Positions 1 to 59,106 of a stretch of DNA of 61,452 bases are shown here, in pieces. The notes beneath the pieces are model-generated. The model searched no databases and had not been told where the DNA came from. It saw only the letters and a program-made list of their open reading frames with translations. The stretch is from a virus (taxonomy: Duplodnaviria > Caudoviricetes), in IMG/VR virus record IMGVR_UViG_3300045996_001309, positions 1 through 61,452 of that record; one strand, written 5' to 3'. Numbering within the stretch: position 1 is the stretch's first letter; every line of letters starts with the position of its first letter. A program made the translations under genes and the position numbers.

Positions 1-155
1 GTGACCCCGTAATGAGCCACGGATAGTAGGGATCGTGCGACCGATGCCCCCCGGCGTTAGGGCCATTACCACCTGATAGATACACCGCTCCTGATGAATT
101 GTTGACGTTGGTCCCCACCCCGCCAGGAGGTGCCAGCATATCGTGTGTCAGACCT
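1..155. repeat. Terminal direct repeat, left copy (circular genome overlap)
   Basis: Bases 1-155 match 61298-61452 except at positions 23 (a/g) and 29 (g/a). Confidence 0.97.
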
Positions 156-2044
156 GTCAAGCTGATGCTCATAGTCGGGAATGGCGCACCGAGCGTAGCA
201 TACGACGCCCCGGCACCATCTGGGCCGTTGTTCAATGCCGGGATGCGACCAGTGCTCTCATTGAGTAATCCGATCCACGCCCAATGCATCTTTCCGAGCC
301 CAGCGGCGCGGGCTTGATTCCAACTGTTTTCGTCTTGTCGCAGCCAAGCGGTAGTTGCATAAGTGGGCAACGGTCCCTGTTGCGCCGTTGTCCCGGCGTT
401 TCCGATAATGTTTCCATTTCCAATCGCTGCGCCGGGACGGTAGAGATCGGTATCGCCACCAGCGCCGCCGCCTCCGCTTACGGTAAAGGCATCAGCAGTG
501 ATGTCCAGATCATATGGCGGAATCAGCCCGGCCGCTTGCCAATAAGTACGCTCGGCTGTGGTCAACTGTGACCGCAATTCGGGGCGGGTCACTGTCCAAT
601 TTGGATTGGCTGCGTCATCTGCCGCAGAATACCAGCCCTGACGATAAGCCTGACATATTCTTCGCGTCACCGTGAGCGTGCCTGATCCGGTCGCGGTTAT
701 GTCGGCTTGCGGGTCAAACCCGGTCGCTTGCACACCTGTCGCTCCGTTAATGTCAGGCCAGAAGCGGTAAGCCGATCCGGTAATTGGCCTGATCCAATAA
801 GGCTTGTTTGCGATCAGCCCAGTCGGCAACGTTCCGGAAGACGACACCGACACGCATTCCCCTTCCGTGAAGGGCGTAGACCCCAGATCCACCGTGTCGT
901 TTGCGATGCTGATGTTGGTCCCGTTTTGGGTTACGTTGACCGGGGCGCCCCAATTACGAACTGTAGAGCCGCCGTCCTTCAGCGTCGCGAAATACGAAGT
1001 CGCATCCAGCCCGACTACATTGAGCCAGGGCTGCATTATAAATGGCATATAAGAAATGCCGTAGACGCTCCCCGAATCGGTCGGGTCTGTGTAGACATCG
1101 ACGTACCAGCGATTCCACAGATGCGCCGTGTCTTCGCCGGCAACCCGCGTGATCGTGGCTCCACCTGAATGCGCCGCAGCCGTCGAGCCACCCGCACCGC
1201 GCGTCAGAAGGTTCAGCGTCGTGCCGTTCGTTACGGATACGAGCACATACTCGCTGTCGATCTTGACCATCTCGGTGCCGCTCGCAGCAAACGCCGCCGT
1301 TGAGCCGACTGTCACGTTGCCTGTCGTGCCGCTGGTCAGCGCTCCGGTTACTGTCGTGGTCGATGGCGTGTTATCGATTGCCGCTCCGTGAACCACAAGC
1401 CCGCGACGAACCGGCCCTGTAGCGACTACCTGGACGATGCCGTCAGCGATCAGCGTATTGAGCGAGGCGGTGAACGAGCCGCTCCCGAGAACGCCGTCCT
1501 CGTAGTGGCAGATGCCATCATTCGGCACTGTCGTGTACGTATAAGCGCACGGCCGCACGTCCGTGTATTCGATCTCGAAATCGTGCGATCCAGTGATATC
1601 CGCCGTCGTGCGGTTGTCGGTTCCTGGCGTGTATGCGCTCGATCGGCGATACCATTTTACCTGCTCAGTGCCGCCGGCAGAGATCGATGGCATGAACCTT
1701 GAGACGGAAGCGTGCCGGCACGAGCCGTCGTCCCATGTCGATACATCGTCAAGCTGGAATGCCCGCTCGGTGCCGTCCGCGTCTTTCGGAACCGGGTGAT
1801 TGGCTGTCAGGCAATCCGGCACCTCGCCGCGCTTCCAGACCATGCCGAATGTGTGCGGCACGATACCGCTGGCTGATCCAGAATCGTTTGTGATGGTTGT
1901 GGTTGCACCAGCCAACAGGACATCGCCGCCGCCGCCGCTATGCCCGCCGCGCTGGAACGGCGGTTTTGTGGATGCCGGGACAGCAGCGAGCATCGCTACG
2001 CAAGTCAAGCCGGTAAGCAGCGCGCGACGAGTGATCTTATTCAC
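1..2044 (-). CDS. 5' part of a ~1062 aa exported polysaccharide lyase-like fibre-tip enzyme (continues across the junction to 60153)
   Basis: Not in the ORF track. I read the frame by hand: GTG at 2044, no stop down to base 1, and in frame with the 60153..61436 ORF. Starts MNKITRRALLTGLTCVAMLAAVPAST-KPPFQRGGHSGGGG. PHTFGMVWKRGEVP...TWDDGSCRHASVS resembles the N-terminal domain of PcRGLX/YetA-like lyases. Confidence 0.8.
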   Translation of the reverse strand, partial: MNKITRRALLTGLTCVAMLAAVPASTKPPFQRGGHSGGGGDVLLAGATTTITNDSGSASGIVPHTFGMVWKRGEVPDCLTANHPVPKDADGTERAFQLDDVSTWDDGSCRHASVSRFMPSISAGGTEQVKWYRRSSAYTPGTDNRTTADITGSHDFEIEYTDVRPCAYTYTTVPNDGICHYEDGVLGSGSFTASLNTLIADGIVQVVATGPVRRGLVVHGAAIDNTPSTTTVTGALTSGTTGNVTVGSTAAFAASGTEMVKIDSEYVLVSVTNGTTLNLLTRGAGGSTAAAHSGGATITRVAGEDTAHLWNRWYVDVYTDPTDSGSVYGISYMPFIMQPWLNVVGLDATSYFATLKDGGSTVRNWGAPVNVTQNGTNISIANDTVDLGSTPFTEGECVSVSSSGTLPTGLIANKPYWIRPITGSAYRFWPDINGATGVQATGFDPQADITATGSGTLTVTRRICQAYRQGWYSAADDAANPNWTVTRPELRSQLTTAERTYWQAAGLIPPYDLDITADAFTVSGGGGAGGDTDLYRPGAAIGNGNIIGNAGTTAQQGPLPTYATTAWLRQDENSWNQARAAGLGKMHWAWIGLLNESTGRIPALNNGPDGAGASYATLGAPFPTMSISLTGLTHDMLAPPGGVGTNVNNSSGAVYLSGGNGPNAGGHRSHDPYYPWLITGS

Positions 2045-4262
2045 AAACAACACTCGTGTCTCCCGTTGCGTTAATGATGACCCCGGTGATGTATGGTATT
2101 CCATCGAGGAACAGCACGGTTTTATTCGTCAGAGAACCACCATCAGGGGTCACGTCGCACGAAGTTGGAACCAAACCGCCCTGCATCCGGCGGAACGCGA
2201 TATCCGTCGTCATCGTCGATTGCGCGCCGGCATTGGGGCCGGTTGGCTTTGTGATGTACTGCCGGATCGTCGCGCCTGAAAGATGCGCCTTGCCCGTCGT
2301 GTTGAGTCGGCCGCGAGCATTAATATCAACCGTATCGCCAGAGACGCTGGCGACGTTAATGATCTCAGCGTCAGCGGTTCCTTCGTCGATAACGAAATAA
2401 AAATTCACCGAACTGGCAAATGTCACTGTAGAAAACGCGGCGCCGCTCGCGACGGTGAAGGTTCCTGTTGTGCTTTCGTCTATGCCGGAAGTGAGCGTCG
2501 TCGTCGGGGAAGTTGGCGACAGCCCCATCCAAGCATTACCAACCGTGAATTCGAAAGCGCTTGCCGTGTCTGCTGTTATGGTCCAGGTGAACCCGGCATT
2601 GACGCAGCCCTGTGGATCGCCATCATAGATGTTCGCCGAGTCGCGTGTTGCGGTTCCGGGGTCGTCATCGATCGAGCTGTTTGAGAAAGCTGGATAGGCA
2701 AGATCGAGCTGGAACTGCGACTTGCTGTAAGCGACGCCGACCATCGCCCCCGATCCGTCCCGATCGATCGGACCCATAGTCGATGGGTTATCGTGATTTG
2801 CCATAGACCAACAAAAAGCGTGGCCGCGCCGCGCGTCCTGAAAAGCGTCTTTTGCCGTGATCTGCGATTGCCAATTCGAGTGTTGGTCGTCTTTGCCGAT
2901 GGCCCATATCGAGACAGGGAGATCGGTGCCTGGATCGGATGCAATAAAGGTCGGCAAGTCGGCATAGCCGCCAGTGCCGCCGAATGTCGTGCCGTCGTCC
3001 ATCAGAACGCTAGATGCCGTCGTGCCAAGGGTGGATGGAGCTGCCGCGACCGTCGCCTTGAACGGCATCGTCGCCGCCCAGGTAAGCCCCGCCCAACCAG
3101 CGCTGTTGCGCAGATCCATCCGCCATATTGGATATGTCCACCACCCGGCGGACACCCGCACGACGCCCGGATCAAATGTGCGGATACTGTCTATCGCGGC
3201 CCACGCACCCATTGATTGACCGACATGGTGAACTTGATTGGCATCCAGGCCGTAGTGATCGATTGTCCAGGCCAGCAGCCGCTCGTTGCGTTTTGCGGTC
3301 CCGCGATACAATCTGTTCGCCGAGCCGACTAATGCATTAGGTGTCATACCTAACCCCTGGTGGAACGTCTCGATCGTGCCGTCCGCATCCAACGGGTCGT
3401 ACACGCTGTCTCTGATGCGAATAACCAGCGGGCCGCTCAGGCTTAAGAAGGTGCCGGTTCCACCAACACCGTCTTCAGTCACGCCGAACATCGACTTCGT
3501 GCCGTCCTGCCAGCCCTCGGCGGGTATGCCAAAGCTCTCCCAAATATCGCCACGGGTGCAACTCACGGTCCCAGCACAACTACCGGGAGATGTGGATGCG
3601 TGCGCGACCCAGATAAGCGGCTTGCCTGCGGGGCTTGTTACTCTGCCGGCCGCCTCTGCTTGATCCGCCGACGCGACAGCCAGGATCGGTTGTGGTGTCG
3701 CGACGCTCTCGGAGATCGGGCCGGCTGAACCGATGTAGCTCAGGCTGCCGTCACTCGTATCGGTCGAGACAACCGCGTAATAGGCATTTGCGGTGCCGAG
3801 CGCGGTATAGACTTGCATCCCGGTAAAGGCATCGAGCATTGCGCCGGCATCGGTCAATTTCGACCGGGGTCGCGTGCCGTTCTGCCGATAGGTCTGGAGG
3901 TAGGGATTTTCTGTGCTGGCGGCCGGATCGCCGCCGGCAAGCTGTGCCGAGTTGTTTGGGATATAACTCGCGATCAGCGTTGCGCTGGTGTAGTTGCCCG
4001 ACGTGATCGGAGATGTCGAGCGGTAGACACGGTAGCGTGTACTGGCGCCTCCTGCGCCATCCGTTCCGACATCATCCCATGTGACAATGGTCTGCCCGTC
4101 CTGGTACTGAGCACACAGCGTCGGGACAGAGGGATCGCACGCTTGTGCCGACCCGCTGCCGCCGCCGCTATGTCCACCGCGCTGGAACGGTGGTTTCGCA
4201 TGGGCGACAGCAACGGCGACGCCGATAACCGCCGCTGTCGCAAGGAATCGTTTCATCGCCAT
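2037..4262 (-). CDS. Exported alpha/beta-hydrolase (esterase-like) fibre-tip protein
   Basis: Sec-type signal ending AVAHA. GQSMG nucleophile elbow, with candidate Asp (GKDD) and His (ANHD). Late RGRLNTTGKAHLSGATI module. Confidence 0.75.
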   Translation of the reverse strand: MAMKRFLATAAVIGVAVAVAHAKPPFQRGGHSGGGSGSAQACDPSVPTLCAQYQDGQTIVTWDDVGTDGAGGASTRYRVYRSTSPITSGNYTSATLIASYIPNNSAQLAGGDPAASTENPYLQTYRQNGTRPRSKLTDAGAMLDAFTGMQVYTALGTANAYYAVVSTDTSDGSLSYIGSAGPISESVATPQPILAVASADQAEAAGRVTSPAGKPLIWVAHASTSPGSCAGTVSCTRGDIWESFGIPAEGWQDGTKSMFGVTEDGVGGTGTFLSLSGPLVIRIRDSVYDPLDADGTIETFHQGLGMTPNALVGSANRLYRGTAKRNERLLAWTIDHYGLDANQVHHVGQSMGAWAAIDSIRTFDPGVVRVSAGWWTYPIWRMDLRNSAGWAGLTWAATMPFKATVAAAPSTLGTTASSVLMDDGTTFGGTGGYADLPTFIASDPGTDLPVSIWAIGKDDQHSNWQSQITAKDAFQDARRGHAFCWSMANHDNPSTMGPIDRDGSGAMVGVAYSKSQFQLDLAYPAFSNSSIDDDPGTATRDSANIYDGDPQGCVNAGFTWTITADTASAFEFTVGNAWMGLSPTSPTTTLTSGIDESTTGTFTVASGAAFSTVTFASSVNFYFVIDEGTADAEIINVASVSGDTVDINARGRLNTTGKAHLSGATIRQYITKPTGPNAGAQSTMTTDIAFRRMQGGLVPTSCDVTPDGGSLTNKTVLFLDGIPYITGVIINATGDTSVVCE

Positions 4263-4269
4263 TCCGGCA

Positions 4270-5541
4270 TCACTTGTTAGCTAGGTAGCTTATTGCGGGA
4301 GCGGATGTCGTAGCCGGGTTGGTGCTGTCTGGATCATCGGCCGTCTGGACCCTATCGTTGTCGTTTACGGCAACTGACATCGCGCATTCTACCTCGGTTG
4401 CGTCTTCATCTAGCTGACACGTAGCTACCTGAACACCGTTGACTCTTGTGCGGTAGATACGATGCTTGCCTGATGCGGCTGCGCCGGGCGCTTGCTGGAT
4501 CTTTATCCGTATTTTTGTCAGTGTCATCGCGCCAACGATGGTCTCGGCGTCAGCCGGCGTTGCGCTACCTGCCAATCCCCCACCCGTCAACGGATAATAA
4601 GTAATCGCTGTTGATGAGTTAACAGTGCCTAGGTTATCTTTCATAAAGATGAAAGATCCCGTTGTCGTTGGGCGGAAACGTGCCCCAAAAGTCGCCGTCG
4701 CGGATGCCGGCACGTTTACATCGTGTGGATTTGCTTCAAATTGTATGTCATCGCCGGCCACAACTGTAAACGAGTTGACCAGATCAGAATTGTCTGTTGC
4801 GGCTCCCGTTATTGTCGTTGTCAAGGCAGTTGTTGCGGCCCCCTTATCTACCGTGTAGGCGTAGCTTGCCGACCCGCCGGGCGCGTTCGACTTGACGTAG
4901 AACTTGTCTATTGTTCCGCCATCCGGAAGCGCGTTGATCCGGCGGTTCGCTGGCGTGTTAACGGTCGCGTTCGAGAATGGGGTAACGGCTTGCGTCACTG
5001 TAGTCGAGTATGTCACACCTTGCGCCGGAATAATCGTGTCTCCCGCTGTCGTTGGAACAAATGTTAGGGCAATGGTCATTAACGAATTAGTTGGTCCGCT
5101 AACCGGCTTGGTTATCAGAGTCCCGCGCTGTCCGGCGGTTATGGCAAGACTCAGCCCCTCAGCCTCGCAACCATTGGCGGCGTTGGTTATTTGACACGTA
5201 ACCGCCGTGTCTACCCCGTTGATGCGCAAGACAATATCCCAGGTATTACCAGCGCCGGGGAGGGTCATAGCGTATGCGCGAATAGCCGTGATCTGCCCCG
5301 CCACGGGAAAAATCATGGACTCAAACTCGGTGCCGGAGGCGGTCGCCGAATATCCCACTGGCAAGAACCTATCAGCCGCTCCGGACACTAGCGATGAGCT
5401 GGTGGTGACAAGCTCCTGCCCGCCGGTTACTGCCGGCGCGGCGAATCGATAGGAATTGATGAGCACATTGGCGGACGCCTGTCCCGCAAGCGCACAAGCC
5501 AGCGCGAAGGCAACCGCAAGGCTGGCGGTTCTCAACAACAT
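4270..5541 (-). CDS. Exported three-domain fibre adaptor/branching protein
   Basis: Signal peptide ending GQASA, mature start NVLINSYRF, then three diverged ~125 aa beta-rich repeats. Confidence 0.65.
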   Translation of the reverse strand: MLLRTASLAVAFALACALAGQASANVLINSYRFAAPAVTGGQELVTTSSSLVSGAADRFLPVGYSATASGTEFESMIFPVAGQITAIRAYAMTLPGAGNTWDIVLRINGVDTAVTCQITNAANGCEAEGLSLAITAGQRGTLITKPVSGPTNSLMTIALTFVPTTAGDTIIPAQGVTYSTTVTQAVTPFSNATVNTPANRRINALPDGGTIDKFYVKSNAPGGSASYAYTVDKGAATTALTTTITGAATDNSDLVNSFTVVAGDDIQFEANPHDVNVPASATATFGARFRPTTTGSFIFMKDNLGTVNSSTAITYYPLTGGGLAGSATPADAETIVGAMTLTKIRIKIQQAPGAAASGKHRIYRTRVNGVQVATCQLDEDATEVECAMSVAVNDNDRVQTADDPDSTNPATTSAPAISYLANK

Positions 5542-5554
5542 TTCTGCCCTCCTA

Positions 5555-7237
5555 TTATGCGCAAGTTCCGATTATCAGAACTTTCAGCCCCCGTGCGCCT
5601 GTACCAGCCGCGTCGATGTCCATCGTGATTTCGGCATCGTCCGCTATGGCGCTGTCGGAAATGACGGCAGGAGTCGCTGCCGTCGTGCTGGTCTTTTCAC
5701 TGGCGTCAATGCTGAGCTTTGTGGAAATTATCGATGATCCCGCCTCGTTGATATCGACAGTCACGAGGCCAGAGCTGCTGATTGTCGCGAGGCTTGAGCG
5801 CACTGCGGTAACGGTTAGGGCACACGGCGAGCGAAAAGTTACCTTTGCCGTTCCCGTTGTTAGATTTGTCGTTTCGTCCGACAGCGCGACCTGGATGCGC
5901 TCGATCGCCGGGTCGAGGTTCGAGGCAACTGCGGCACGAAAGTTAGAGCCGTCTCCCGATACGAACGCTTTCTTCCCCTTGGACAACCGTAGGGTCGCAG
6001 CGAGATCGATCGTCTCGGCACCGTTTGGATCGATCGTGCAGCTAAGGGCGTCGCACTCGATGTAGACGCCAAAGCCGTTGCCAAGCGTCGCGGCAGCCGT
6101 CAGAGGTATTGTCACCGCGCCAGCATTGGTTAGGCGAACGGTTTCATTCGCGTCGCCGGCAACGATCGTGCGGCTCGTGGTGGAGTCCGTGTTTACAGTC
6201 TCCGAAAGAGACAGCGTGCCAGAGGTCATCGCAAGACCGCTGCCGAGCGTTACCTCGTTAAAGGCACCGGCATTGTCATAAATTATGCTGCCGTCCGTGA
6301 CGCCAGAAAGATCGGCACCGCTGGGCGTTGCCCACGTCCCGTCGCCTCGCCAGAACGTGCTGCTAGACGCGCTCGTGCCGCTGTTTAGGTTGGCAACCGG
6401 GAGGTTGCCTGTTACGCCGGTTGAAAGGGGCAACCCGGTTGCGTTGGTTAGTACGCCGCTTGCAGGAGTACCGAGAGCCGGCGTCACGAGTGTGGGCGAA
6501 GTGCCGAAGACAAGTGCGCCTGTCCCCGTTTCCCCGGTGACGGCCGCCGCCAAGTTTGCCGTCGATGGCGTCCCCAGGAATGTCCCCACGCCAGTGCCAA
6601 GGCCCGAAACGCCTGTCGTTATCGGAAGACCTGTGGCATTGGTCAGCACCAGTGCAGACGGTGTTCCCAGGTCTGGGGTCGTCAATGTTGGGCTAGTGCC
6701 GAAAACCAGCGCTCCCGATCCCGTCTCTCCAGTGACGGCGGACGCCAAATTCACGCTAGACGGGGTGCCAAGCCATGTGTCAACCGCCGTGCCCAAGCCG
6801 GTCAGCCCCGCGATCGGGAGACCTGTGGCATTGGTCAATGTTAGTGCGGACGGTGTTCCTAGAGCCGGTGTAACCAGCGTCGGCGAAGTCCCAAACACCA
6901 ATGCCCCAGAGCCGGTTTCATTGGTCACGGCTGCCGCGACGTTCGCACTCGTCGGAGTCGCGAGCATTGTGGCGATGCCGGTGGCCGGCGTGATTGCGCC
7001 AAAATTACCGCCGCCCGCATTAGTCTGGAGATCGTTGGTACTGCCGGCAGGCGTACCGCCGCCCCCGCCTGCTCCACAAGCCGACCCCGTACCGGAGACC
7101 GCGCCCGTGGTATCAACCTGCAAGCACTGCGTCGATCCAGTGATGTAGTCGAGAATAAGATCGGCCTCAGCTCTCGGCGAGAAGGCAAGCGTCGTCAGCG
7201 CCAGCGCAACCGCGCTCGCGTAATTAAATGCTCTCAT
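5555..7237 (-). CDS. Exported fibre protein with three ~61 aa repeats and C-terminal adaptor domains
   Basis: Likely start is ATG 7237 ([25 protein letters not shown]) after a [23 protein letters not shown] repeats and a C-terminal [19 protein letters not shown]...GLKVLIIG domain, both typical of phage fibres. Confidence 0.8.
6400..6985 (-). repeat. Three tandem ~185 bp coding repeats in the fibre gene
   Basis: Three copies of TP(S/T)xxNxAxAVTxETG(S/T)[31 protein letters not shown]. Confidence 0.9.
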
Positions 7238-7238
7238 T

Positions 7239-7457
7239 TTAATCTCCGATGACGACGTTGCCGACTGCGGACACCCGCACCGTTCCGGTGGCTGAAATGA
7301 CAATGTTTCCGATAGAGGGAGGCGGTGGGGGTGGATTGCCTGTGCCGCCGCCTTTGCCCCGCGATTCACTGGCGCCGAAGCTAAAACCGAAGCCTTGCGC
7401 AAGCGCTGGGCCGGTGAGCAGAGACAGCACGAAGATAATCGCGAGAGGAATTTTCAT
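7239..7457 (-). CDS. Small exported head-spike anchor/linker peptide
   Basis: Signal ending GPALA, then QGFGFSFG, a Gly linker, a Pro6 run and a short beta tail. Lies directly after the spike-base gene. Confidence 0.65.
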
Positions 7458-7461
7458 TGCG

Positions 7462-7821
7462 TTATCTCAAGGCGGTTACGTGCGTACACGTTGTGCCCGT
7501 AGCGAGTAGCCGCTTTATCGAATAAGGATAGGACAAGCCGGGCTGCACGTTAGGGAGCGTGACCGCGCCGGTAGTCAACGAGTCCGCCGAGAAAACCACC
7601 GCGATATTGCACGCCGCCGCGTCGCCAATGTGCAGCCCGCGCGTCGCGGTGATCGTGGTCGAATCCCCCGGTGTCAGCAGCGTGGCTGATCGCCCCTGGT
7701 TAAGAGTTGCCTGACCACTCGGCGCCGGCTGCGCCAGAGCAGGAACGACGGCAAGCGCCGCGCACAAAAAAACCGCCAGAAAGGCGGCCTCGCGAGCTAC
7801 GCGAGCTGTACGATTAAGCAT
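7462..7821 (-). CDS. Head spike base protein (RcGTA Rcc01079-like) with an added signal peptide
   Basis: TPGDS..TRGLHIG...VTLPNVQPG..PYSIKRLLATGTT matches my recollection of the spike-base family. Hydrophobic N-terminus ends VPALA. Confidence 0.7.
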   Translation of the reverse strand: MLNRTARVAREAAFLAVFLCAALAVVPALAQPAPSGQATLNQGRSATLLTPGDSTTITATRGLHIGDAAACNIAVVFSADSLTTGAVTLPNVQPGLSYPYSIKRLLATGTTCTHVTALR

Positions 7822-7888
7822 GGTGGTGTCCTTGTTGCTGCGAGCGCAAAACCCAACTTAGTCAGGAGTTATTTGGATTCGGATAGCC

Positions 7889-8185
7889 GTGACAAACGAC
7901 GCTCCCAAGCCGGCCCCGCTTGAGATCACCATCAGGTTCGATCCGCAGCGTGTGCGGGCAATGCTGCGAAACCTTCGATCCTTAGCGCTCACGGTCGCGG
8001 CCGCTGGTGGCGCTGTTATCTACGCGCTGCGTCTGCCGCTACTATTCTTGGCGACACTCGCTTTCGCGGCCGTCTTGGCAGGCGTAACAGGCTCAGGAAG
8101 ATCCCTCGGCTTATTCGCTGCCGTGTGGCTGATCTACGGTGTATTTTGGCTTAAAGCTAGGTACTCGCCGCTGATCCGCGACTAG
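7889..8185 (+). CDS. Small membrane protein (moron, opposite strand)
   Basis: Three hydrophobic stretches. Lone plus-strand gene in the virion operon. Confidence 0.6.
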   Translation: MTNDAPKPAPLEITIRFDPQRVRAMLRNLRSLALTVAAAGGAVIYALRLPLLFLATLAFAAVLAGVTGSGRSLGLFAAVWLIYGVFWLKARYSPLIRD

Positions 8186-11100
8186 CGCGTGCCGACTGAC
8201 CGTTGAACCCCTTCCTCAGCGGCGTCGAACAGGTGCCGAAAACCAATCGTGTTTTGTAAAGGCAGTATGCGTCGAGCGGCGTTTATATCACCTTCGGTAG
8301 GATCACCCGTTGCCGCGCCACGAACAGCGCGACCAGCATCCTCGATTAACCCGCCCGTGGGGCCAGTGACAGCGCCGAGCACGCCGCGACTCGAATAGCG
8401 CGATGTCGGCGCTTCTCCGATAAAGCGCTGCAACCCGACTGCGCCGCCAGTAGCTTTTTCCATCGTATTGTGCGCGTCGAACAGCCATCCGGTAAGGCCC
8501 GAGCGATCGACGCCCTCGCGCAGCCATTGCGCCATCCCGTCCGCCGTCGTCGGGTCGGGCAGATCCTTCTTATTTGGATTGTCGTTGAGCTGGTGCTTGA
8601 CGTAATACGTCATCATCCCGAGCGCTGTCATCAACAGCACACCGTTTAGCGTCGCCATGTCGCGACGCTGTAACCCACTCAGCAGCACTCGCTGCGTCGA
8701 TGACATCGCAAAACCCTTGAACTGCCCAAGCAGCCTGCCGGTATTGCCCCAGGCGCCGGACATGATGAGCGGGCGCTCCATACCCGGCGTGACGATGATC
8801 TCGTCCACCTCTTTGGCAAGCGCCCCACGAAACGCATCTACTGCCGCTTGGTCGTCCCATGCTGCTGTATTTGCCCACCAAACGCCGCCATCGGTTTTCT
8901 CGCCGTGCGCCTTAAACTGAGCCGTGATGCGCTCGGCCTCGTCTTGTCCGATTCCCAGGCGAGCAAGCCGGGTTGTCTCGGCCTTTGAGACGCCGCTGCC
9001 GGCAGCCAGTTTCTCAACCGCTTGCAATGTGCGGGTCTGCGAAACGACACCAGCAAACTGCTTCATGGCGCTATTCCACGGCGCCATTAGGGTGGCTAAC
9101 CCGAACTTACGCGACATGCCTTGTAGACCGCGCTCGTATTTCGACCAGCGCCCGTAATCATCGAGCATGTCGGCCATCGCCATTGCCCGCGTGTCGAGCA
9201 CCATGTCAAGCGCGGTGCCGGCGAGCTGCGTCTCCTTTCCTGCTAAACGAAACTTCTTAAAGTTGCTTAGCATCGGCGCGAGCCCGTCGCGCGCAACTCG
9301 CGAGATGCCGTGAACCATGACGGCACGGCCAACATCGGAAAACGCCGAGATCGTCATGCCGCCAAGCAGACGCAGATAATTCAAATCACGAATTACGTGG
9401 TACGCGCGGTTAGCCAAGCCGTTTGGATTGTCGGGCAGACCATAGGTGCCACGGAGACGATCACGCACAGCGGCAATGTCGCGAATGTCGGCGCGCATCT
9501 GGGCATCGAGCTTCTTTAACTCAGCCTCACTCTTGCCTTGACGCAGTATTTCGTAATCAGAAAGGATCTTCTTGATCTGATCTTCCATATCAACCCGGCC
9601 GAACTTCTCGGTCAGGGTCACGTCGGAGGCCATCGTGCGGTTATAGAGACGCGCGATCACGCGCACGTCGCTCTCAAGAATGTCCTCGATCATCTCGTCG
9701 GGGATTTTGAACGCGCGATGCGCTAGCGGACCACGAGGCGGCGGTCCATCACTCGGGCGCCCGCGAGGCGATGGCGTCTCGACATCGTAGGGTAGTCGGC
9801 CGATCGGCGTGCTAAGGATGCGATCGATAATCTGCTTCGCGATATCATTAAGGTCTTCTTCTTCCTGGCGAGTGTTCGCTCTCGCAATTGCCCGAGCCGC
9901 CTTCGACACCGGCTTGTCGGCCTCCTTTAGTCGGCCCTTACCCGGTTCACGAGTCGCTTCTTTCTCCGCACGGCGCTTCAGAGCGCTCTTGGCCTTCATG
10001 CTGGTGTTGCCTTCCCAGCTCGAAACAAGATCCTCGATTTCGGCGCGGATCGCCTCCAGCCGGGCCTGATCCTTATCAAGCCGCCCACCGATCTCGTCTA
10101 TAATACCCTCAGTGCCGCTTGCCTGATCGGATAGCGTATTGATACGCCCGCGAATGCGGCTTTCAAACACGGCGCCGCCACGAGCAGCCCCGCCCTTGCG
10201 GCGCATCTCCTCTTTGAGATCGCCGCGTAGGCGCCGAAGCTCGCGACGGTATGGCCGGATAAGTTTCCCGATTTCAGTCCGAGCTTGCACTAATCCGGCG
10301 CGTTCCTCGGGGGAGAGGCCGCTCCCTTCGCGAGCAAGCCGCTGCACGGCCTTTACGAAATCATCGCCGCCGGCAATAACGTCTACCAGAGTTTCCCCGT
10401 CGCGCAGGCCCGCCAGGGCGTCTTCCGCGACCGCTCGCTGCTGTGGTGTAAACCGAGCCTCGATATTCCTAATACTCGCGCGAATCTGGTCTATCGGTTG
10501 CGTCATCGCAGCTGAACGCTTGAACGCAAAGGCGTTCAGCCGAGAGACTTCTTCGCGCCGGATCTCCTGTTCACGCAACTTACGCGAGCGCAATTCTATT
10601 TTCGCTTCCCGCTTACGCACCCTGCCGGAAAGCTCCTTCTGCTCCGTGATTAGGTCAGAGACCTTGCCTCGGATCGTGTCTTTCTTCGCCTGCTCGTCGG
10701 CCAGCCATCCCGCAAATCTTTGGGTAATCTCAGGACGCTTTGCGATGATCCTCTCGTTATTGTAGACCCGCATAAAATACGACAGGGCAGTATCGGTCGA
10801 CACGTCCTCATCAAGGAGCCCGGCCTTGATCGCCCGCTCTTTCCACGGATCGAACACCCGATCACGCATCAGCTTAGCTGCTTGCGCAACCTCGGGAACT
10901 TCATGTTGATCCTCGCGACGCATCGCGCGACCGACTTGTTCAGCAAACTCGTCATAGGACAGCTTGCCGGCACGATCGCGCACAAGATCACCGACAGCGA
11001 GCCGGGTCACGCTGCCAATGCCTCGATCCCCGCCGGTACGGTAGCGCACAAACAGATCGTCGAGTCCGCCCAACGCCTCCGCGAGCGGAGCACTCGCCTG

Positions 11101-12834
11101 CCGAAGGTCAGTCTCGACGGCGCGCGGCGATGGTATTCCTTCCTCGTTCTTTCGCAGCCCGACTGGCAGCTCGGCAAGCTCCTGTATCAGGTGGCGCGAT
11201 TCCAATGATGGCGAGAACATCGGCCGCAAGTTTGGTGCGGTCTGCGCGAGCGCCCGTCCCATCCCGAGCGCACTTTGCAGGGTTTCCTGCTCAAGGGTTG
11301 TGTCACGAGCCGCCGCCGCGCCGGCCGATCCGCCACGAGCGGAAATGCCTGTTTCTAGCGCCTGTCGGCGAGCAATATCGTCCAGAGCTTGTAGCGATTC
11401 CGGTCCAAGCGTTATGTCAGGTGTCATGCTTTGCGCCGGTACGGGAGATGGGTTACGTTGAACATCTTCCCCGTTCTTCTTTAAGACCTCAATGCGCGCC
11501 TCGTCAAAAATGACGTAATTACGTGTACCCGATTTAGCGGCGCGAGATTCTTCATCAAAAAATCGCAAACCGTGCAATCCGGCACGAGCCAAGGCTTCTG
11601 ACGCTTCCTGAAACCCCCCGCGCCCTCCCCGATTAAGTCCTCGGCGCAACGCCCAATAAACATCTTCTCCCGTGGAATTAGGATCGAGAGCGCGCTCTCG
11701 GCTCCACGCTCTCCCGAAAGAATCACGAAATCCCCATTTGGGGATGGAATCCACGGCTTTGGCAACAGCCGCCTGTACTGCGGGTGATTGCTGCCCTAAA
11801 GGTAATTCCAAATCCATAATATCCGCAACGTGCAGATTCACCTCATATAAAGAGCCACCATCTCTATAGGTAGATGCAACATCGGGTGATTCTGCAAAGT
11901 ACATACCATAACCGTATGTTTGATTCCCTTCTCCAGTGCCAATCAGAGCTTTGCGGAATTTGGTCACATCGTGACGCGATCCGTGATACGCGGTTATCGG
12001 AGCCGCCACCCGTTCCTGCGGCTCGGGAAAATCTCCCCGATTAAGGTACGATCGCAGAACCCCCCCTGATGGTGCAGCGCTTGGTTGCGTAACGGAAGCA
12101 TCCTCGTCCACGTAGCCGCGTTCAATCGCGCCAAGCTCGCGCCCATAGTCTTCACTCTCACGCATCACGCGGCTGGAAAATTCTTCCAACCCACGCGCCA
12201 CGCCCTGCGCCACAGGACGGCTCAGTGCCCCGATAGCGCCACCTAGTGCGCCGCCGATGACGGTCGATGCAGCCACGTTTACCGCGCTCTCGCTCCACGG
12301 GCGCGTTACTTGTGTCGCCTGAAGTCCGGCTTCCTGCGCAGCGGTGCCGACGGCCGACGCAGCTCCGATCCGTGCGGCGCCTGCCAACGCTCGACCAGTG
12401 CGCGTCACGGCCATGAATTGCCCGCCAACAGGAATTACCGTCGTCGGGTCTAGTAATGTTGCCGCGCCAGAAGCAAGCAATCCCATGACGCCGCCATTGG
12501 CCTGTATGTCAGCGCGGCGACGCTCAGCGTCGATGCGAGCCTTCGTGGCAAGGACATCATCCTCGCTGTTGTCTCCAAGGAAGGCGCGCGCGTGATCTTC
12601 GTATCCGCGAATTCTCTCGCCATCCTGCCCAAACGGGTCAAAGCTCGGATCGAACGGCGCGCGGGCAGGCTGCGTCAGCGCTTCTGCCGCTGAGCCGACC
12701 ACGTTATTGCGTAGCATTTCCGTGCCGAACAGCGTCGAGAACGGAGCTGCCGGGGCGCTGGTGGCAAGAGGCTCGGCTAGTTGCGGGACGAGACCAGACA
12801 CCGGAACCTGATCATCGTCGGCCAGGATCGGCAT
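8182..12834 (-). CDS. Large internal virion (ejection) protein, T7 gp16-like position, with an ART-like insert
   Basis: 1550 aa helical protein, last of the ejection trio. GQFKGFAM-type C-terminal region. YHGS...GEGNQTYGYGMYFAE insert. Confidence 0.8.
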   Translation of the reverse strand: MPILADDDQVPVSGLVPQLAEPLATSAPAAPFSTLFGTEMLRNNVVGSAAEALTQPARAPFDPSFDPFGQDGERIRGYEDHARAFLGDNSEDDVLATKARIDAERRRADIQANGGVMGLLASGAATLLDPTTVIPVGGQFMAVTRTGRALAGAARIGAASAVGTAAQEAGLQATQVTRPWSESAVNVAASTVIGGALGGAIGALSRPVAQGVARGLEEFSSRVMRESEDYGRELGAIERGYVDEDASVTQPSAAPSGGVLRSYLNRGDFPEPQERVAAPITAYHGSRHDVTKFRKALIGTGEGNQTYGYGMYFAESPDVASTYRDGGSLYEVNLHVADIMDLELPLGQQSPAVQAAVAKAVDSIPKWGFRDSFGRAWSRERALDPNSTGEDVYWALRRGLNRGGRGGFQEASEALARAGLHGLRFFDEESRAAKSGTRNYVIFDEARIEVLKKNGEDVQRNPSPVPAQSMTPDITLGPESLQALDDIARRQALETGISARGGSAGAAAARDTTLEQETLQSALGMGRALAQTAPNLRPMFSPSLESRHLIQELAELPVGLRKNEEGIPSPRAVETDLRQASAPLAEALGGLDDLFVRYRTGGDRGIGSVTRLAVGDLVRDRAGKLSYDEFAEQVGRAMRREDQHEVPEVAQAAKLMRDRVFDPWKERAIKAGLLDEDVSTDTALSYFMRVYNNERIIAKRPEITQRFAGWLADEQAKKDTIRGKVSDLITEQKELSGRVRKREAKIELRSRKLREQEIRREEVSRLNAFAFKRSAAMTQPIDQIRASIRNIEARFTPQQRAVAEDALAGLRDGETLVDVIAGGDDFVKAVQRLAREGSGLSPEERAGLVQARTEIGKLIRPYRRELRRLRGDLKEEMRRKGGAARGGAVFESRIRGRINTLSDQASGTEGIIDEIGGRLDKDQARLEAIRAEIEDLVSSWEGNTSMKAKSALKRRAEKEATREPGKGRLKEADKPVSKAARAIARANTRQEEEDLNDIAKQIIDRILSTPIGRLPYDVETPSPRGRPSDGPPPRGPLAHRAFKIPDEMIEDILESDVRVIARLYNRTMASDVTLTEKFGRVDMEDQIKKILSDYEILRQGKSEAELKKLDAQMRADIRDIAAVRDRLRGTYGLPDNPNGLANRAYHVIRDLNYLRLLGGMTISAFSDVGRAVMVHGISRVARDGLAPMLSNFKKFRLAGKETQLAGTALDMVLDTRAMAMADMLDDYGRWSKYERGLQGMSRKFGLATLMAPWNSAMKQFAGVVSQTRTLQAVEKLAAGSGVSKAETTRLARLGIGQDEAERITAQFKAHGEKTDGGVWWANTAAWDDQAAVDAFRGALAKEVDEIIVTPGMERPLIMSGAWGNTGRLLGQFKGFAMSSTQRVLLSGLQRRDMATLNGVLLMTALGMMTYYVKHQLNDNPNKKDLPDPTTADGMAQWLREGVDRSGLTGWLFDAHNTMEKATGGAVGLQRFIGEAPTSRYSSRGVLGAVTGPTGGLIEDAGRAVRGAATGDPTEGDINAARRILPLQNTIGFRHLFDAAEEGVQRSVGTR

Positions 12835-30731: not shown

Positions 30732-30742
30732 TAGCCTCCCTC

Positions 30743-30861: not shown

Positions 30862-30862
30862 C

Positions 30863-31384: not shown

Positions 31385-31472
31385 AAAACCTCATCACCAT
31401 CATTACGCGCGTCAAGCAGCGCAATCACCCACAACCAAAGCGTCGCGCTCGCGCGCGTCACTAATAGTCTCT

Positions 31473-33698: not shown

Positions 33699-34370
33699 TT
33701 AATTCACAATCCATTCGCCAGTGACGGATCGGGCAATCCATTCTCCCCCGACACGGGCATGTAAGCAAACAGACGAATGTGGTGAATCTGATTCAATACT
33801 AGAACCGGAGGTTCCTGTTCCTGTTCCCAAAGCAATCGTGTTTCCTACAGGAGCTGTTAGCTTTAACAGGAAAGTTTCAACCACAGTGTAACAACGTGTC
33901 GGAGCTATTGGGCTGGCCCCCGGCAATGTAATTTCAGTTGTGGTTGTTGCTCCCGCATTATCGAAATCTAAAATTTGACCGGAATAGTTAAGATCAATAG
34001 GTGTTCCATTGATCATAAGACTAAATGTCGTCGCGGCTCCACCGTAACCATTCAATGAAATAACGGCCGCACCATCTTCATACCCGATGCACAAGGAATT
34101 ATAAGGGCCGGTAGTGACAGCATCATTGACACAAAATCCGAGACCAGACGAGGTTACGGAAAATGGATTTAAGCCACGCCCAAAGGCATCACCGGCAATA
34201 CCGCCGGCCGCGCCATAACGGCCCTGAGTAATCGCCTTAAGGGCGTCGCCGGGGACAAGAACACCATCTTGAAAGGCTGGAGTCCGTTGGGCAAATGCTG
34301 AAGGCGATAATGCAGGGAGGCTGCCAATCAACAGAACCAGCCCAGCAATAAATCTTATTGCCGCATTCAA
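33699..34370 (-). CDS. Exported fibre adaptor-like protein
   Basis: Signal ending SAFA, 4 Cys, and a C-terminal EITLP...W...GEW adaptor-like domain. Confidence 0.6.
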   Translation of the reverse strand: MNAAIRFIAGLVLLIGSLPALSPSAFAQRTPAFQDGVLVPGDALKAITQGRYGAAGGIAGDAFGRGLNPFSVTSSGLGFCVNDAVTTGPYNSLCIGYEDGAAVISLNGYGGAATTFSLMINGTPIDLNYSGQILDFDNAGATTTTEITLPGASPIAPTRCYTVVETFLLKLTAPVGNTIALGTGTGTSGSSIESDSPHSSVCLHARVGGEWIARSVTGEWIVN

Positions 34371-57717: not shown

Positions 57718-58386
57718 TCAGGTCGGATATTCCTTGCGATAGGCAAGCCACGTCGCACGCGAGCGCGGACCCCAATCGCCGTCTGCCGGCCCGGTATCAA
57801 AACCAAATGCCGTCAGCTCTCGCTGCGCTTTCTTCGCGGCTCGCGCTAGGCTGGCGAGGGCTTTCACCAGTTTTTCAGGTGGCGGTGATTGCGGCTCTGC
57901 TGGCAGCGCGCTCAGATACAGTGCGCGCTCTTCTTCTCGGCGCCGCACTAGCCCCTTGATGACTTTGCCGCCAGCCCTGTTCCAGGAACGGAAGGCATCG
58001 GCGGCGCTCGCGTAATCGCCAGCCTTGTGATGTCGAGCGACGCTGGAATTTCGGAACCCGTTCCCTTCGTTTTTCGGCGTGTCAGGATTGTCGAACTTAC
58101 CGCCGCCGATATTCCAGGCCAGCGATACCATCGCATCAAACTGCGCCTGCGTGACCGGAGCGTGACCGATTGCTTCCATCACCGCCGGCTCGAACTCGTT
58201 TGCCAATCGAGTGACTAAACGTTCTTCGGCTTCCTGTTTAGTGATTTCCATCCCAGAGTGAACATTCTTTGTATCGCCGTATCCGATTGTCCAGACTGGC
58301 GGGTTGGCAATCTGGTCAAGATAAGCCGTTAGCTCACACCCTTCGTTGCGGCGGATCATATTGAGTCCGATAGAGCTTGTTTTCAT
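57718..58386 (-). CDS. Endolysin (GH24 lysozyme + C-terminal PG-binding domain)
   Basis: EGCELTAYLD...WTIGYG, QAQFDAMVSLAWNIG, GLVRRREEE and ADGDWGPRS motifs. Confidence 0.95.
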   Translation of the reverse strand: MKTSSIGLNMIRRNEGCELTAYLDQIANPPVWTIGYGDTKNVHSGMEITKQEAEERLVTRLANEFEPAVMEAIGHAPVTQAQFDAMVSLAWNIGGGKFDNPDTPKNEGNGFRNSSVARHHKAGDYASAADAFRSWNRAGGKVIKGLVRRREEERALYLSALPAEPQSPPPEKLVKALASLARAAKKAQRELTAFGFDTGPADGDWGPRSRATWLAYRKEYPT

Positions 58387-58469
58387 GTTTGTCTCTTGCT
58401 AAAATTCGAGACGGTTGTCTGGAGCCAACCCGACTGTCTCTGACCAACTTCGCCCCGGAGTAAGCGACG

Positions 58470-59102: not shown

Positions 59103-59106
59103 TATT

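What the first reader, a model, noticed from the sequence alone, without database searches (positions are those of the whole stretch)
1..7821. Six consecutive head-spike/fibre genes all encode export signal peptides: a virion appendage that appears to be built outside the cytoplasm
Seen in sequence: each product has a basic-hydrophobic N-terminus ending in an A-x-A/T site (VPALA|Q, GPALA|Q, RAEA|D, GQASA|N, AVAHA|K, VPAST|K). Mature cysteines are even in number and mostly closely paired: 2 in the spike base, 6 in the fibre, 4 in the adaptor. Established: tailed-phage virion proteins normally assemble in the cytoplasm without signal peptides, and RcGTA Rcc01079/Rcc01080 form head spikes that bind capsule. 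Inference: this phage exports a spike base, anchor, fibre, branch adaptor and two enzymes to the periplasm, where they fold with disulfides. They would then dock on capsids only at or after inner-membrane lysis. An alternative is that lysogens display or release them as a phage-derived extracellular apparatus.
Basis: partly seen in the sequence, partly recalled or inferred. Interest (0 to 1): 0.92.

Follow-up and report, generated by a model that had tools for sequence, protein, structure and literature searches.

The report
Phage spike and fibre genes carrying export signals
A soil phage carries six neighbouring spike, fibre and enzyme genes that all start with bacterial export signals, so these parts are probably made outside the cytoplasm, which is not how tailed-phage parts are known to be made.

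Summary
The window is a whole about 61.3 kb temperate podophage with a T7-like structural module. Its ends overlap by 155 bases. Six tightly packed minus-strand genes lie between the gp16-like internal virion gene and the lysis genes. All six start with signal peptides: five Sec-type and one twin-arginine (Tat) type. Gene 6 runs over the record's end and is about 1065 aa.

Export is well supported by comparison.
- The signals recur in homologues: 16 of 18 (g1), 11 of 17 (g4), 22-24 of 28 (g5) and 3 of 3 Tat motifs (g6-like).
- Signal-less g4 homologues begin where g4's predicted mature end begins.
- In three domain families a conserved cysteine pair occurs almost only in signal-bearing members: 91 with both and 63 with neither, against 11 mixed, of 165 spike-base relatives.

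g1 belongs to the RcGTA Rcc01079 spike-base family at threshold. g3 is a phage fibre and g5 an esterase-like hydrolase.

Whether the exported parts end up on virions could not be tested. I give about 0.45 to docking at lysis and about 0.33 to an envelope-acting, non-virion role. Seven literature searches found no description of this.

The parts
7462..7821 (-). g1: spike-base homologue, 119 aa. Sec-type signal (cleavage ALA|Q after residue 30). Mature 89 aa with Cys pair C71/C112.
   Evidence: ORF. NCBIfam NF048002 28.1 bits vs cut-off 28. Profile hits 8cjz_h and 6tb9 Rcc01079. phrog_12296 E 6e-6. Signal and Cys pair in 16 of 18 homologues.
7239..7457 (-). g2: 72-aa product. Sec-type signal (ALA|Q after residue 20). 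Mature 52 aa begins with alternating Gly/Phe, then poly-Pro, then a beta-strand-like tail. No Cys.
   Evidence: ORF, features. No family hit in Pfam, PHROGs, NCBIfam or PADLOC. The role as an anchor is only an analogy to the RcGTA fibre N-terminus.
5555..7237 (-). g3: fibre, 560 aa. Sec-type signal (AEA|D after residue 25). About 48-residue shaft repeats and a C-terminal domain. Six mature Cys.
   Evidence: ATG with GGAG 10 nt upstream. tblastn to phage fibre or virion proteins. Same repeats in a signal-less 715-aa podovirus fibre. C-terminal domain aligned with 6 signal-less phage homologues that lack both Cys.
4270..5541 (-). g4: 423 aa. Sec-type signal (ASA|N after residue 24). Three tandem beta-rich repeats of about 130 aa. 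Four mature Cys in two close pairs.
   Evidence: Family A2. Repeats seen as multiple self-offset BLAST matches in viral-contig proteins. Weak profile hits to a 'Fiber protein' and a xylanase module, E 0.02-0.03. Cys16 not conserved, so not a lipoprotein.
2037..4262 (-). g5: 741 aa. Sec-type signal (AHA|K after residue 22). N-terminal KPPFQRGG motif, Gly linker, Cys loop, FN3-like domain and an alpha/beta-hydrolase (esterase-like) domain with GQSMG. Eight mature Cys.
   Evidence: Family A5/A7. Near-invariant H345, S350, G352 and H490. Atlas esterase leads: score 0.87, TM 0.62-0.63. No Pfam hit.
2..2053 (-). g6, N-terminal 684 aa. Tat-type signal (ITRRALLTG ... AST|K). The same KPPFQRGG motif as g5.
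   Evidence: Start candidates and GGGAG. Tat motif conserved in 3 of 3 g6-like proteins. PF19501 PcRGLX_1st 16.6 bits, below cut-off 22.1.
60153..61451 (-). g6, C-terminal part. It continues over the record's end overlap. The full product is about 1065 aa with 12 mature Cys.
   Evidence: 51-residue protein overlap between the two pieces. Joined in memory for counting. No family hit.
1..155 (.). End overlap: 1-155 equals 61298-61452 except for 2 mismatches. The record closes on itself, so g1-g6 are internal to the phage genome.
   Evidence: CheckV 100% complete, IMG/VR class 'linear'. One contig of run X2 runs over position 1.
7889..8185 (+). Antisense 98-aa ORF with hydrophobic segments, in the 360-nt gap between gp16-like and g1. 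Possible moron. It may mark a separate transcription unit for g1-g6.
   Evidence: ORF. No family hit. Promoter and terminator scans at shuffle level.
8182..12834 (-). gp16-like internal virion protein (1550 aa), immediately upstream of the module.
   Evidence: phrog_342 E 2.1e-110, phrog_16310 E 3e-145. ART-PolyVal 32.1 bits vs 31.2.
57718..60043 (-). Genes downstream of g6: a 122-aa membrane protein (60043-59675), a receiver-domain protein (59678-59286) and a GH24 endolysin (58386-57718). This sets the module in the fibre slot before lysis genes.
33699..34370 (-). Seventh signal-bearing gene (223 aa, four mature Cys). It heads a second fibre/tailspike cluster (33688-32687 fibre tip, 32675-31473 beta-helix tailspike) whose other two genes have no signal.

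Best explanation
The six genes are a phage operon for a receptor-binding and polysaccharide-modifying module that is made outside the cytoplasm.

SHOWN BY COMPARISON. g1-g5 carry Sec-type signal peptides and g6 a Tat-type one. These signals are conserved and evolving features of each protein family. They arose as N-terminal add-ons to proteins that also exist without them. They go together with conserved cysteine pairs.

INFERRED.
1. The proteins cross the inner membrane: five unfolded through Sec, and g6 folded through Tat.
2. Signal peptidase I frees new N-termini. These are a Gly/Phe-alternating end on g2 and a shared KPPFQRGG peptide on a glycine tether on g5 and g6.
3. Periplasmic oxidation forms the disulfides.
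4. The parts then associate: spike base, small peptide, fibre, three-domain beta protein, esterase and lyase-like protein.
5. When the holin and endolysin break the envelope, the finished complexes meet DNA-filled virions. They dock as accessory spikes, on capsid pentons by analogy with RcGTA.
6. Before lysis the enzymes may already trim nascent surface polysaccharide.

The module moves as a cassette between unrelated podophage backbones.
For: PLACEMENT. The record is a complete phage that closes on itself. The six genes sit between the gp16-like gene and the lysis genes, on the same strand as the structural module, with gaps of 1-13 nt or overlaps.

VIRION-TYPE HOMOLOGY.
- g1 is in the spike-base family.
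- g3's repeats and C-terminal domain occur in phage fibre or virion proteins.
- The g4 domain occurs in proteins of 11 viral contigs.

EXPORT.
- Signals in 16 of 18 g1 homologues.
- Signals in 11 of 17 g4 homologues.
- Signals in 22 of 28 g5 homologues, plus 2 behind a longer predicted start.
- The K[IL]TRR[AG]LL Tat motif in 3 of 3 g6-like proteins.
- Signal sequences vary while the mature domains are conserved.
- Signal-less g4 homologues P0022 and P0028 begin at the residues that align with g4's predicted mature end.

CYSTEINE PAIRS.
- Spike-base relatives: of 165, a hydrophobic N-extension with the Cys pair in 91, neither in 63, extension only in 10, pair only in 1.
- g4 family: pair in 8 of 11 signal-bearing members and 0 of 6 others.
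- g3 C-terminal domain: both Cys in g3 and in 0 of 6 signal-less phage homologues.
- Mature Cys counts are all even.
- The capsid, scaffold, gp15-like and gp16-like proteins have none.

CASSETTE.
- A different podophage backbone (G001) has four signal-bearing genes after its ejection proteins: a tailspike-like gene, a g3-like fibre, a g5-like gene and a Tat g6-like gene.
- A third element (L024) has a g5-like gene, a 283-aa ORF and then a g6-like gene.

PRECEDENT FOR THE ARCHITECTURE. In RcGTA a base pentamer holds one fibre by its alternating hydrophobic/Gly N-terminus (passages of PMC7296036).
Against: - No datum places any of the six proteins on a virion.
- No cultured phage in 50,697 GenBank records has a detectable g1, g4 or g5 homologue, so no proteomics exists.
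- The phage has other candidate receptor-binding proteins without signals: 33688-32687, 32675-31473 and an 800-aa extension on tubular protein A. The module may therefore be dispensable.
- Those two signal-less proteins are also Cys-rich (8 and 5), so cysteine content alone does not mark export.
- A 360-nt gap with an antisense ORF separates g1 from gp16.
- G001 has no g4 or g1 homologue, yet it keeps the KPxFxRGG peptide. Its docking partner, if any, is therefore not g4 or g1.
- The g1 match to the family profile omits positions 1-14, which is the arm that binds the capsid in RcGTA.
- The co-occurrence counts are not corrected for shared ancestry, and my signal rule is crude.
- Docking after dilution at lysis has no precedent that I could find.
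Confidence: 0.45

Rival explanations
1. The proteins are exported but never become part of the virion. They act on the infected cell's own envelope. The esterase and lyase-like enzymes, held by lectin-like or fibre parts, remove or alter the surface polysaccharide receptor from the periplasmic side or after release. This blocks superinfection, stops progeny from sticking to debris and loosens capsule or biofilm for escape. It would be a receptor-destroying function.
For: - Export is as well supported as in the main reading.
- The KPxFxRGG peptide is conserved across elements with unrelated virion backbones and without g1 or g4. That fits a host-side partner better than a virion partner.
- The phage has signal-less fibre and tailspike candidates for infection itself.
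- Free or loosely bound polysaccharide-degrading tailspikes are known for RcGTA (passages).
Against: - A spike-base homologue and a long shafted fibre are hard to explain for a soluble enzyme job.
- In G001 the tailspike slot itself is filled by signal-bearing proteins. That record is only 77% complete.
- No defence-family hit for any of the nine proteins scanned.
Confidence: 0.33
2. The module is a moron-type unit expressed by lysogens. The exported spike, fibre and enzymes form a phage-derived surface or released apparatus, such as an adhesin or matrix remodeller, that benefits the host. This is independent of virion production.
For: - The phage is temperate: CI-like repressor with HTH_31 plus Peptidase_S24.
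- An antisense ORF and a 360-nt gap precede g1.
- g4 and g5 homologues lie on 130-218 kb contigs, including an alphaproteobacterial MAG where they are on different contigs.
- Phage-encoded envelope and displayed proteins are described for other phages (passages).
Against: - Same strand and tight packing with the late structural genes and the lysis genes.
- No promoter or terminator signal above shuffle level.
- Conserved position after ejection or internal virion proteins in two backbones.
Confidence: 0.12
3. The hydrophobic N-termini are not cleaved export signals. They are docking or anchoring segments, like the hydrophobic N-terminus of the RcGTA head fibre that plugs into the base pentamer. 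The appendage assembles in the cytoplasm as usual.
For: - RcGTA Rcc01080 residues 2-10 are a hydrophobic/Gly peptide bound in pockets of the base.
- No signal-peptide predictor or experiment was available.
Against: - The segments have basic n-regions, 15-19 uncharged residues and A-x-A ends.
- Their sequences drift freely while their character is kept.
- One is a conserved twin-arginine signal.
- Signal-less homologues start at the predicted mature ends.
- Cys pairs track the segments in three families.
- The base protein itself carries one. A base protein has no pentamer to plug into.
Confidence: 0.05
4. The six genes are not phage genes. They are host DNA at a prophage edge or an assembly chimera.
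For: IMG/VR classes the record as linear. Homologues occur on long bacterial contigs.
Against: - The ends overlap by 155 bases and g6 reads through the junction in frame.
- GC content is even across the record.
- Near-identical contigs from another soil run bridge 6877-7491 and 7973-8314.
- The same gene set lies inside two other phage-like elements.
Confidence: 0.03

Closest known systems
RcGTA head spike (Rcc01079 base pentamer plus Rcc01080 fibre) of Rhodobacter capsulatus
   Same: g1 falls in the same NCBIfam family at threshold and matches the solved base protein by profile. The gene order is base first, then fibre-type genes. The role there is capsule binding (passages read).
   Different: Rcc01079-type members are 77-95 aa, with no signal and no Cys pair. 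g1 has a 30-residue signal, a Cys pair and a different N-terminal arm (profile positions 1-14 unmatched). Here four more exported genes follow, two of them enzyme-like.
Tail-fibre slot of T7-like podophages (gp17 after gp16) and multi-protein, branched receptor-binding sets of other podophages (recalled, not from a call)
   Same: Position directly after the gp14-16-like internal virion genes and before the lysis genes. There are several receptor-binding or enzyme proteins, and g5 and g6 share an N-terminal peptide.
   Different: No T7-tail-fibre N-terminal domain or any Pfam tail-fibre family in the six. All six carry export signals.
Filamentous phage (Ff) coat and adsorption proteins, exported by Sec with disulfides before assembly (recalled, not from a call)
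   Same: These are virion proteins that carry cleavable signals and fold in the periplasm. They are the only familiar case of phage receptor-binding proteins made this way.
   Different: Those phages assemble by extrusion at the membrane without lysis. This one is a tailed, lytic-release phage with a cytoplasmic capsid pathway: terminase, portal and scaffold.
Signal-bearing morons and lysis proteins in late operons: lambda lom and bor, T5 Llp (recalled); spanins and SAR endolysins (passages of PMC3556154)
   Same: Phage late-region genes whose products use host export and act at the envelope.
   Different: Those are single small membrane or lipoproteins with no virion homology. Here it is a six-gene block of spike, fibre and enzyme homologues.
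Free or loosely attached phage and GTA depolymerases, e.g. RcGTA TspA (bioRxiv 10.64898/2026.07.19.739414, passages)
   Same: A polysaccharide-acting enzyme that works both on and off the particle.
   Different: TspA is made in the cytoplasm. That paper's text has no mention of a signal peptide or secretion (0 occurrences).

Membership tests
Spike base protein, RCAP_Rcc01079 family (NCBIfam NF048002) | Score at or above the curated cut-off of the family model | tested here: met
   28.1 bits vs cut-off 28, E 1.8e-6. 27.8 bits alone and 28.4 with frame neighbours in the genome search. This is borderline.
Spike base protein, RCAP_Rcc01079 family (NCBIfam NF048002) | Whole domain matched, including the N-terminal arm that binds the capsid in RcGTA | tested here: not met
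   Only profile positions 15-84 of 85 are matched. The arm's role is taken from PMC7296036 passages.
Spike base protein, RCAP_Rcc01079 family (NCBIfam NF048002) | Jellyroll fold forming a pentamer on capsid pentons | not testable with these tools
Five copies are not accepted by complex prediction.
Spike base protein, RCAP_Rcc01079 family (NCBIfam NF048002) | Partner fibre with an alternating hydrophobic/Gly N-terminus encoded next to it | tested here: inconclusive
   The g2 mature end alternates Gly and Phe over about 8 residues, but with only three large hydrophobics. Binding was not tested.
Sec-type signal peptide cleaved by signal peptidase I | Basic n-region, uncharged hydrophobic h-region of 7-20 residues, small residues at -3 and -1 | tested here: met
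   g1-g5: net +1 to +2, h-region 15-19 residues, A at -3 and -1. This used my own rule, not SignalP.
Sec-type signal peptide cleaved by signal peptidase I | Actual translocation and cleavage | not testable with these tools
   Indirect support only: signal-less homologues start at the mature end, and Cys-pair co-occurrence.
Twin-arginine (Tat) signal peptide | S/T-R-R-x-F-L-K-like motif before a mildly hydrophobic stretch (motif recalled) | tested here: met
   g6 has ITRRALLTG followed by 18 uncharged residues. K[IL]TRR[AG]LL is present in 3 of 3 g6-like proteins.
Bacterial lipoprotein (lipobox) - considered for g4 | Conserved Cys at +1 of a lipobox | tested here: not met
   g4 Cys16 is replaced by A, L or F in all 10 other signal-bearing homologues.
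Alpha/beta-hydrolase esterase - g5 | Conserved G-x-S-x-G nucleophile elbow with conserved acid and His | tested here: met
   S350, G352 and H490 are invariant and H345 near-invariant in 13 sequences. D435 and D459 are invariant.
Alpha/beta-hydrolase esterase - g5 | Match to a curated family model or a solved esterase | tested here: not met
   No Pfam or NCBIfam hit. PDB profile hit to esterase 3doh only at E 0.78. Atlas leads are below the 0.9 bar.
PcRGLX-like rhamnogalacturonan lyase - g6 | Pfam PF19501 at or above its gathering score | tested here: not met
   16.6 bits vs 22.1. The PDB search gave only WD40-repeat matches over residues 218-337.
T7 gp17-type tail fibre | N-terminal tail-attachment domain | tested here: not met
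   No Pfam family in g1-g5 at E up to 0.1. PHROG fibre hits are only weak, for g1 and g6.
Known anti-phage defence or exclusion systems (PADLOC) | Any model match | tested here: not met
   0 families for the 9 proteins scanned at E up to 0.01.

The most novel reading that the evidence does not exclude
Some tailed phages build part of the virion outside the cytoplasm. A large, unrecognised clade of spike-base proteins, together with fibres, lectin-like proteins and enzymes, would be exported by Sec or Tat and locked by disulfides in the periplasm. They would be added to DNA-filled particles only when lysis merges the compartments. This would be a two-compartment assembly line for Caudoviricetes, and it would be portable between podophage backbones as a cassette.
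Probability: 0.4. Interest if true: 0.92.

Novelty: new variant of a known kind. Interest (0 to 1): 0.78.

Why it matters
Tailed-phage particles are taken to assemble wholly in the cytoplasm. This matters for three reasons.

1. Spike, fibre and depolymerase homologues systematically carry Sec or Tat signals here, and they gain disulfide pairs when they do. So either a step of virion assembly happens in the periplasm or at lysis, or phages export virion-derived parts to rework the host surface. Either reading would be new biology.

2. The feature is not a one-off. At least 91 of the 165 spike-base relatives examined belong to the signal-plus-cysteine form. The module also occurs on different phage backbones.

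3. It gives clear bench tests: PhoA fusions, dsbA and tat hosts, and virion N-terminomics. It may also yield disulfide-stabilised receptor-binding proteins and polysaccharide esterases or lyases from soil phages.

Tried and rejected
TOOLS NOT AVAILABLE

Complex prediction
- The pair g4 (25-423) with the g5 N-terminal part (23-150) gave no verdict: score 0.00, controls not run. I take nothing from it.

RNA AND READS
- No RNA holder was listed for 2000-9000, so nothing can be said on expression.
- Laid contigs were short, with many uncovered bins.

CONTEXT SEARCHES
- g1-family patterns found one weak hit in genome contigs (a Parcubacteria MAG, not followed up), none in viral contigs and none in metagenome contigs.
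- tblastn of g1, P0068, g4 and g5 against GenBank phages, and of g5 against plasmids, found nothing.

OTHER NEGATIVE RESULTS
- Promoter and terminator scans were at shuffle level.
- hhalign of the g1 family against the g4 family showed no relation.
- The Atlas search for g6 gave no usable lead.
- g4 as a lipoprotein was rejected.
- A g2-g3 frameshift fusion was considered because g3's frame is open 55 codons upstream. I dropped it because it would bury g3's signal.

LITERATURE
- Searches found no paper describing Sec- or Tat-exported spike or fibre proteins of tailed phages in the held library.
- Supplements were closed and might hold signal-peptide tables.
- Passages only were read of PMC5026251, PMC7296036, PMC10589892, PMC3556154 and two bioRxiv preprints.
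- PMC10386132 had no occurrence of my terms.
- All other papers were seen as search listings only.

Full report
WHAT THE WINDOW IS

The held genome is this one 61,452-base record. Its first 155 bases repeat at its end with 2 mismatches, and the last gene of the finding reads through that junction in frame. IMG/VR lists it as a virus record, CheckV 100% complete, class 'linear'.

On the minus strand lies a T7-like podophage structural module:
- small terminase 31384-30863
- large terminase 30225-28702
- portal 27451-25748
- capsid 23995-23141
- tubular A 22335-19345 (996 aa)
- tubular B 19342-16607
- gp14-, gp15- and gp16-like internal virion proteins 16241-8182

A CI-like repressor (HTH_31 plus Peptidase_S24) at 50503-51255 marks it as temperate. 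Known phages are only distant relatives: tubular B has under 30% identity to pelagiphage and other podophage proteins. Three soil-metagenome runs from three studies hold at least half of the sampled words of 2000-9000. Near-identical short contigs from one of them bridge 6877-7491 and 7973-8314.

THE OBSERVATION

Six genes follow gp16 on the same strand, after a 360-nt gap that holds an antisense 98-aa ORF. They are g1 7821-7462, g2 7457-7239, g3 7237-5555, g4 5541-4270, g5 4262-2037 and g6 from about 2050 across the record end to 60153. Spacings are 4, 1, 13 and 7 nt, and then an overlap.

Downstream come a small membrane protein, a receiver-domain protein and a GH24 endolysin. The block therefore sits where T7-like phages keep the tail-fibre gene.

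At the chosen starts every product has a basic n-region and 15-19 uncharged hydrophobic residues. g1-g5 have A at -3 and -1. g6 has a twin-arginine motif and most likely starts at TTG 2050 or a neighbouring GTG behind GGGAG.

Shine-Dalgarno-like motifs precede the signal-including starts of g1, g3, g4 and g6. No in-frame start lies just after the hydrophobic stretch in g1, g2, g3 or g5.

A crude rule flagged 12 of 90 greedy ORFs genome-wide. The clear cases outside the block reduce to one, 34370-33699. SignalP was not available, so the calls rest on my own rule and on comparison.

ARE THE SIGNALS REAL?

Four lines of comparison say yes.

1. The signals are conserved as a character while their sequence drifts.
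   - 16 of 18 g1 homologues have one.
   - 11 of 17 g4 homologues have one.
   - 22 of 28 g5 homologues have the hydrophobic stretch within the first 9 residues, and 2 more have it behind a longer predicted start. Of the other 4, two begin inside the mature domain and two are unclear.

2. They are add-ons. Two signal-less g4 homologues begin with residues that align to g4's predicted mature end. The signal-less fibre of a Manatee Spring podovirus has the same shaft repeats behind an ordinary fibre N-terminus.

3. One of them is Tat-type. The motif K[IL]TRR[AG]LL is kept in all three g6-like proteins found, and each is followed at the predicted cleavage site by [KR]P[PL]F.R[GA]G. A docking peptide has no reason to mimic a twin-arginine signal.

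4. Cysteine pairs track the signals in three unrelated domain families.
   - A profile search with the g1 family over 1.84 billion representatives gave 2769 hits at E up to 0.001. I analysed the best 150 together with the 18 first hits, which made 165 distinct proteins. Of these, 91 had a hydrophobic N-extension and both Cys, 63 had neither (two of these are multi-repeat proteins outside the family), 10 had the extension only and 1 had the pair only.
   - In the g4 family the first pair is present in 8 of 11 signal-bearing and 0 of 6 other members.
   - In the g3 C-terminal domain both Cys are present in g3 and in 0 of 6 signal-less phage homologues.
   - Mature Cys counts are 2, 0, 6, 4, 8 and 12, and 4 for the seventh gene.
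   - The capsid, scaffold, gp15-like and gp16-like proteins have none.

Caveats. The counts are not corrected for shared ancestry. The 'extension' criterion is hydrophobicity only. Two signal-less fibre or tailspike candidates of this phage have 5 and 8 Cys.

WHAT THE PROTEINS ARE

- g1 reaches the curated cut-off of NCBIfam 'spike base protein, RCAP_Rcc01079 family' (28.1 vs 28 bits; profile positions 15-84 of 85). Its family profile hits PDB 8cjz chain h 'Spike Base Protein' (E 4.6e-6) and RcGTA Rcc01079 (E 1.7e-3). As a single sequence it hits 8cjz only at E 0.49.
- In RcGTA a pentamer of this protein sits on capsid pentons by its N-termini. It holds one fibre through the fibre's alternating hydrophobic/Gly residues 2-10.
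- g2 matures to 52 residues that begin with alternating Gly and Phe, followed by a proline run. It has no family.
- g3 is a fibre. Residues 96-356 and 416-560 match phage fibre or virion proteins, including a 'virion structural protein' of a Rhodobacteraceae phage.
- g4 has three tandem beta-rich repeats. The same domain occurs, often multiplied, in proteins of 11 viral contigs. Profile hits to a 'Fiber protein' and a xylanase module are weak (E 0.02-0.03). The 'branch adaptor' label is untested.
- g5 has an FN3-like part and an alpha/beta-hydrolase part with a conserved G-x-S-x-G, acid and His. Its Atlas leads are esterase-like. It has no curated family hit.
- g6 has only a sub-threshold PcRGLX N-terminal match.
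- None of the nine proteins scanned matches a defence model.

THE MODULE TRAVELS

An IMG/VR contig of 42 kb (G001, 77% complete) has a different backbone: large terminase, a 711-aa portal, capsid, and ejection proteins with a transglycosylase. Straight after the ejection proteins it has four signal-bearing genes. These are a 622-aa tailspike-like protein, a g3-like fibre whose signal ends in the same RAEA, a g5 homologue (53% identical) and a Tat-signal g6-like protein.

A metagenome contig (L024) has a g5-like gene, a 283-aa ORF and a Tat g6-like gene, followed by a membrane/coiled-coil protein.

By my crude rule, several other viral contigs with g4-domain genes show runs of large signal-like ORFs. 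L014 has four (705, 1073, 517 and 866 aa). I did not check these for host flanks.

No homologue of g1, g4 or g5 was found in 50,697 GenBank phage records or, for g5, in PLSDB plasmids. No cultured example is therefore at hand.

HOW IT MOST LIKELY WORKS

Shown: conserved Sec and Tat signals on spike, fibre and enzyme homologues in a late-operon position, with matching disulfide signatures.

Inferred: export, cleavage, oxidation and association in the periplasm. What happens next is open.

- Docking on released virions at lysis: about 0.45. The base and fibre homology, the fibre-slot position in two backbones and the tethered N-terminal peptides all point to a particle appendage. Late addition of spikes and decoration proteins to finished particles is a known property of tailed phages (recalled).
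- An envelope-acting, receptor-destroying role without virion attachment: about 0.33. The phage has other, signal-less fibre candidates. The shared KPxFxRGG peptide is also kept in elements that lack g1 and g4 and have unrelated virions.
- Expression by lysogens: about 0.12.
- Non-export: about 0.05.
- Non-phage origin: about 0.03.

COMPARISON AND NOVELTY

The closest known system is the RcGTA head spike. g1 is a borderline member of its base family but differs in its signal, its Cys pair and its N-terminal arm. The block occupies the T7 fibre slot without any T7-fibre domain.

Exported virion proteins are familiar only from filamentous phages (recalled). Exported late-region products of tailed phages are familiar only as morons, spanins and SAR endolysins (passages, otherwise recalled).

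Seven searches of the held library found no description of Sec- or Tat-exported spike or fibre proteins in tailed phages. Supplements were closed.

I rate it a new variant of a known kind. If extracytoplasmic virion assembly is shown, it would be categorically new.

LIMITS

No signal-peptide predictor, structure prediction or usable complex prediction was available. There were no expression data. Genomic context is known for only three elements.

Noticed in passing
window 8182-12834 (-): The gp16-like internal virion protein (1550 aa) carries an ART-PolyVal ADP-ribosyltransferase domain near residues 279-352 (32.1 bits vs cut-off 31.2). It could be an ejected host-modifying enzyme.
   Followed up: no
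window 19345-22335 (-): Tubular protein A is 996 aa. Only the first ~184 residues give the best match to the tubular-A family. The long remainder may be a fused fibre or spike.
   Followed up: no
window 59286-59678 (-): A response-regulator receiver-domain protein (PF00072, 35.4 bits) sits between a small membrane protein and the endolysin, inside the presumed lysis region.
   Followed up: no
window 7889-8185 (+): An antisense 98-aa ORF with hydrophobic segments lies in the gap between gp16-like and g1 and overlaps the gp16 stop. It has no family hit in four libraries and is a possible moron.
   Followed up: partly
window 31473-34370 (-): A second receptor-binding cluster lies upstream of the small terminase. 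It holds a signal-bearing 223-aa protein with four mature Cys, a fibre-tip protein (phrog_4492, E 4e-45) and a pectate-lyase-like beta-helix tailspike. The last two have no signal but 5 and 8 Cys.
   Followed up: partly
window 50503-51255 (+): A CI/LexA-like repressor (HTH_31 plus Peptidase_S24) is present. No integrase turned up among the ORFs I scanned, but the scan was not exhaustive.
   Followed up: no
L001 5332-7479 (+) (MW202701.1): The deposited annotation calls a 'ribonuclease E' gene on the opposite strand of what is clearly a 715-aa fibre gene with the same shaft repeats as g3.
   Followed up: partly
L015 6016-7884 (= G001 30723-32591): A 622-aa tailspike-like protein with a pectate-lyase-type motif has a clear Sec-type signal. 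It sits in the tailspike slot right after the ejection proteins of a different podophage.
   Followed up: partly
L014 2739-13237; L005 13819-17138; L006 7211-9950; L010 8201-10255: Other viral contigs of varied GC (0.40-0.56) show runs of large ORFs with signal-like N-termini next to g4-domain genes. In L010 this lies between a T7-like portal and tubular B. The habit may therefore be widespread, but host flanks were not excluded.
   Followed up: partly
P0186, P0187, P0198, P0149, P0164 (spike-base relatives): Ten family members have a hydrophobic N-extension but not the Cys pair. One (P0187) has an RR motif that looks Tat-like.
   Followed up: no
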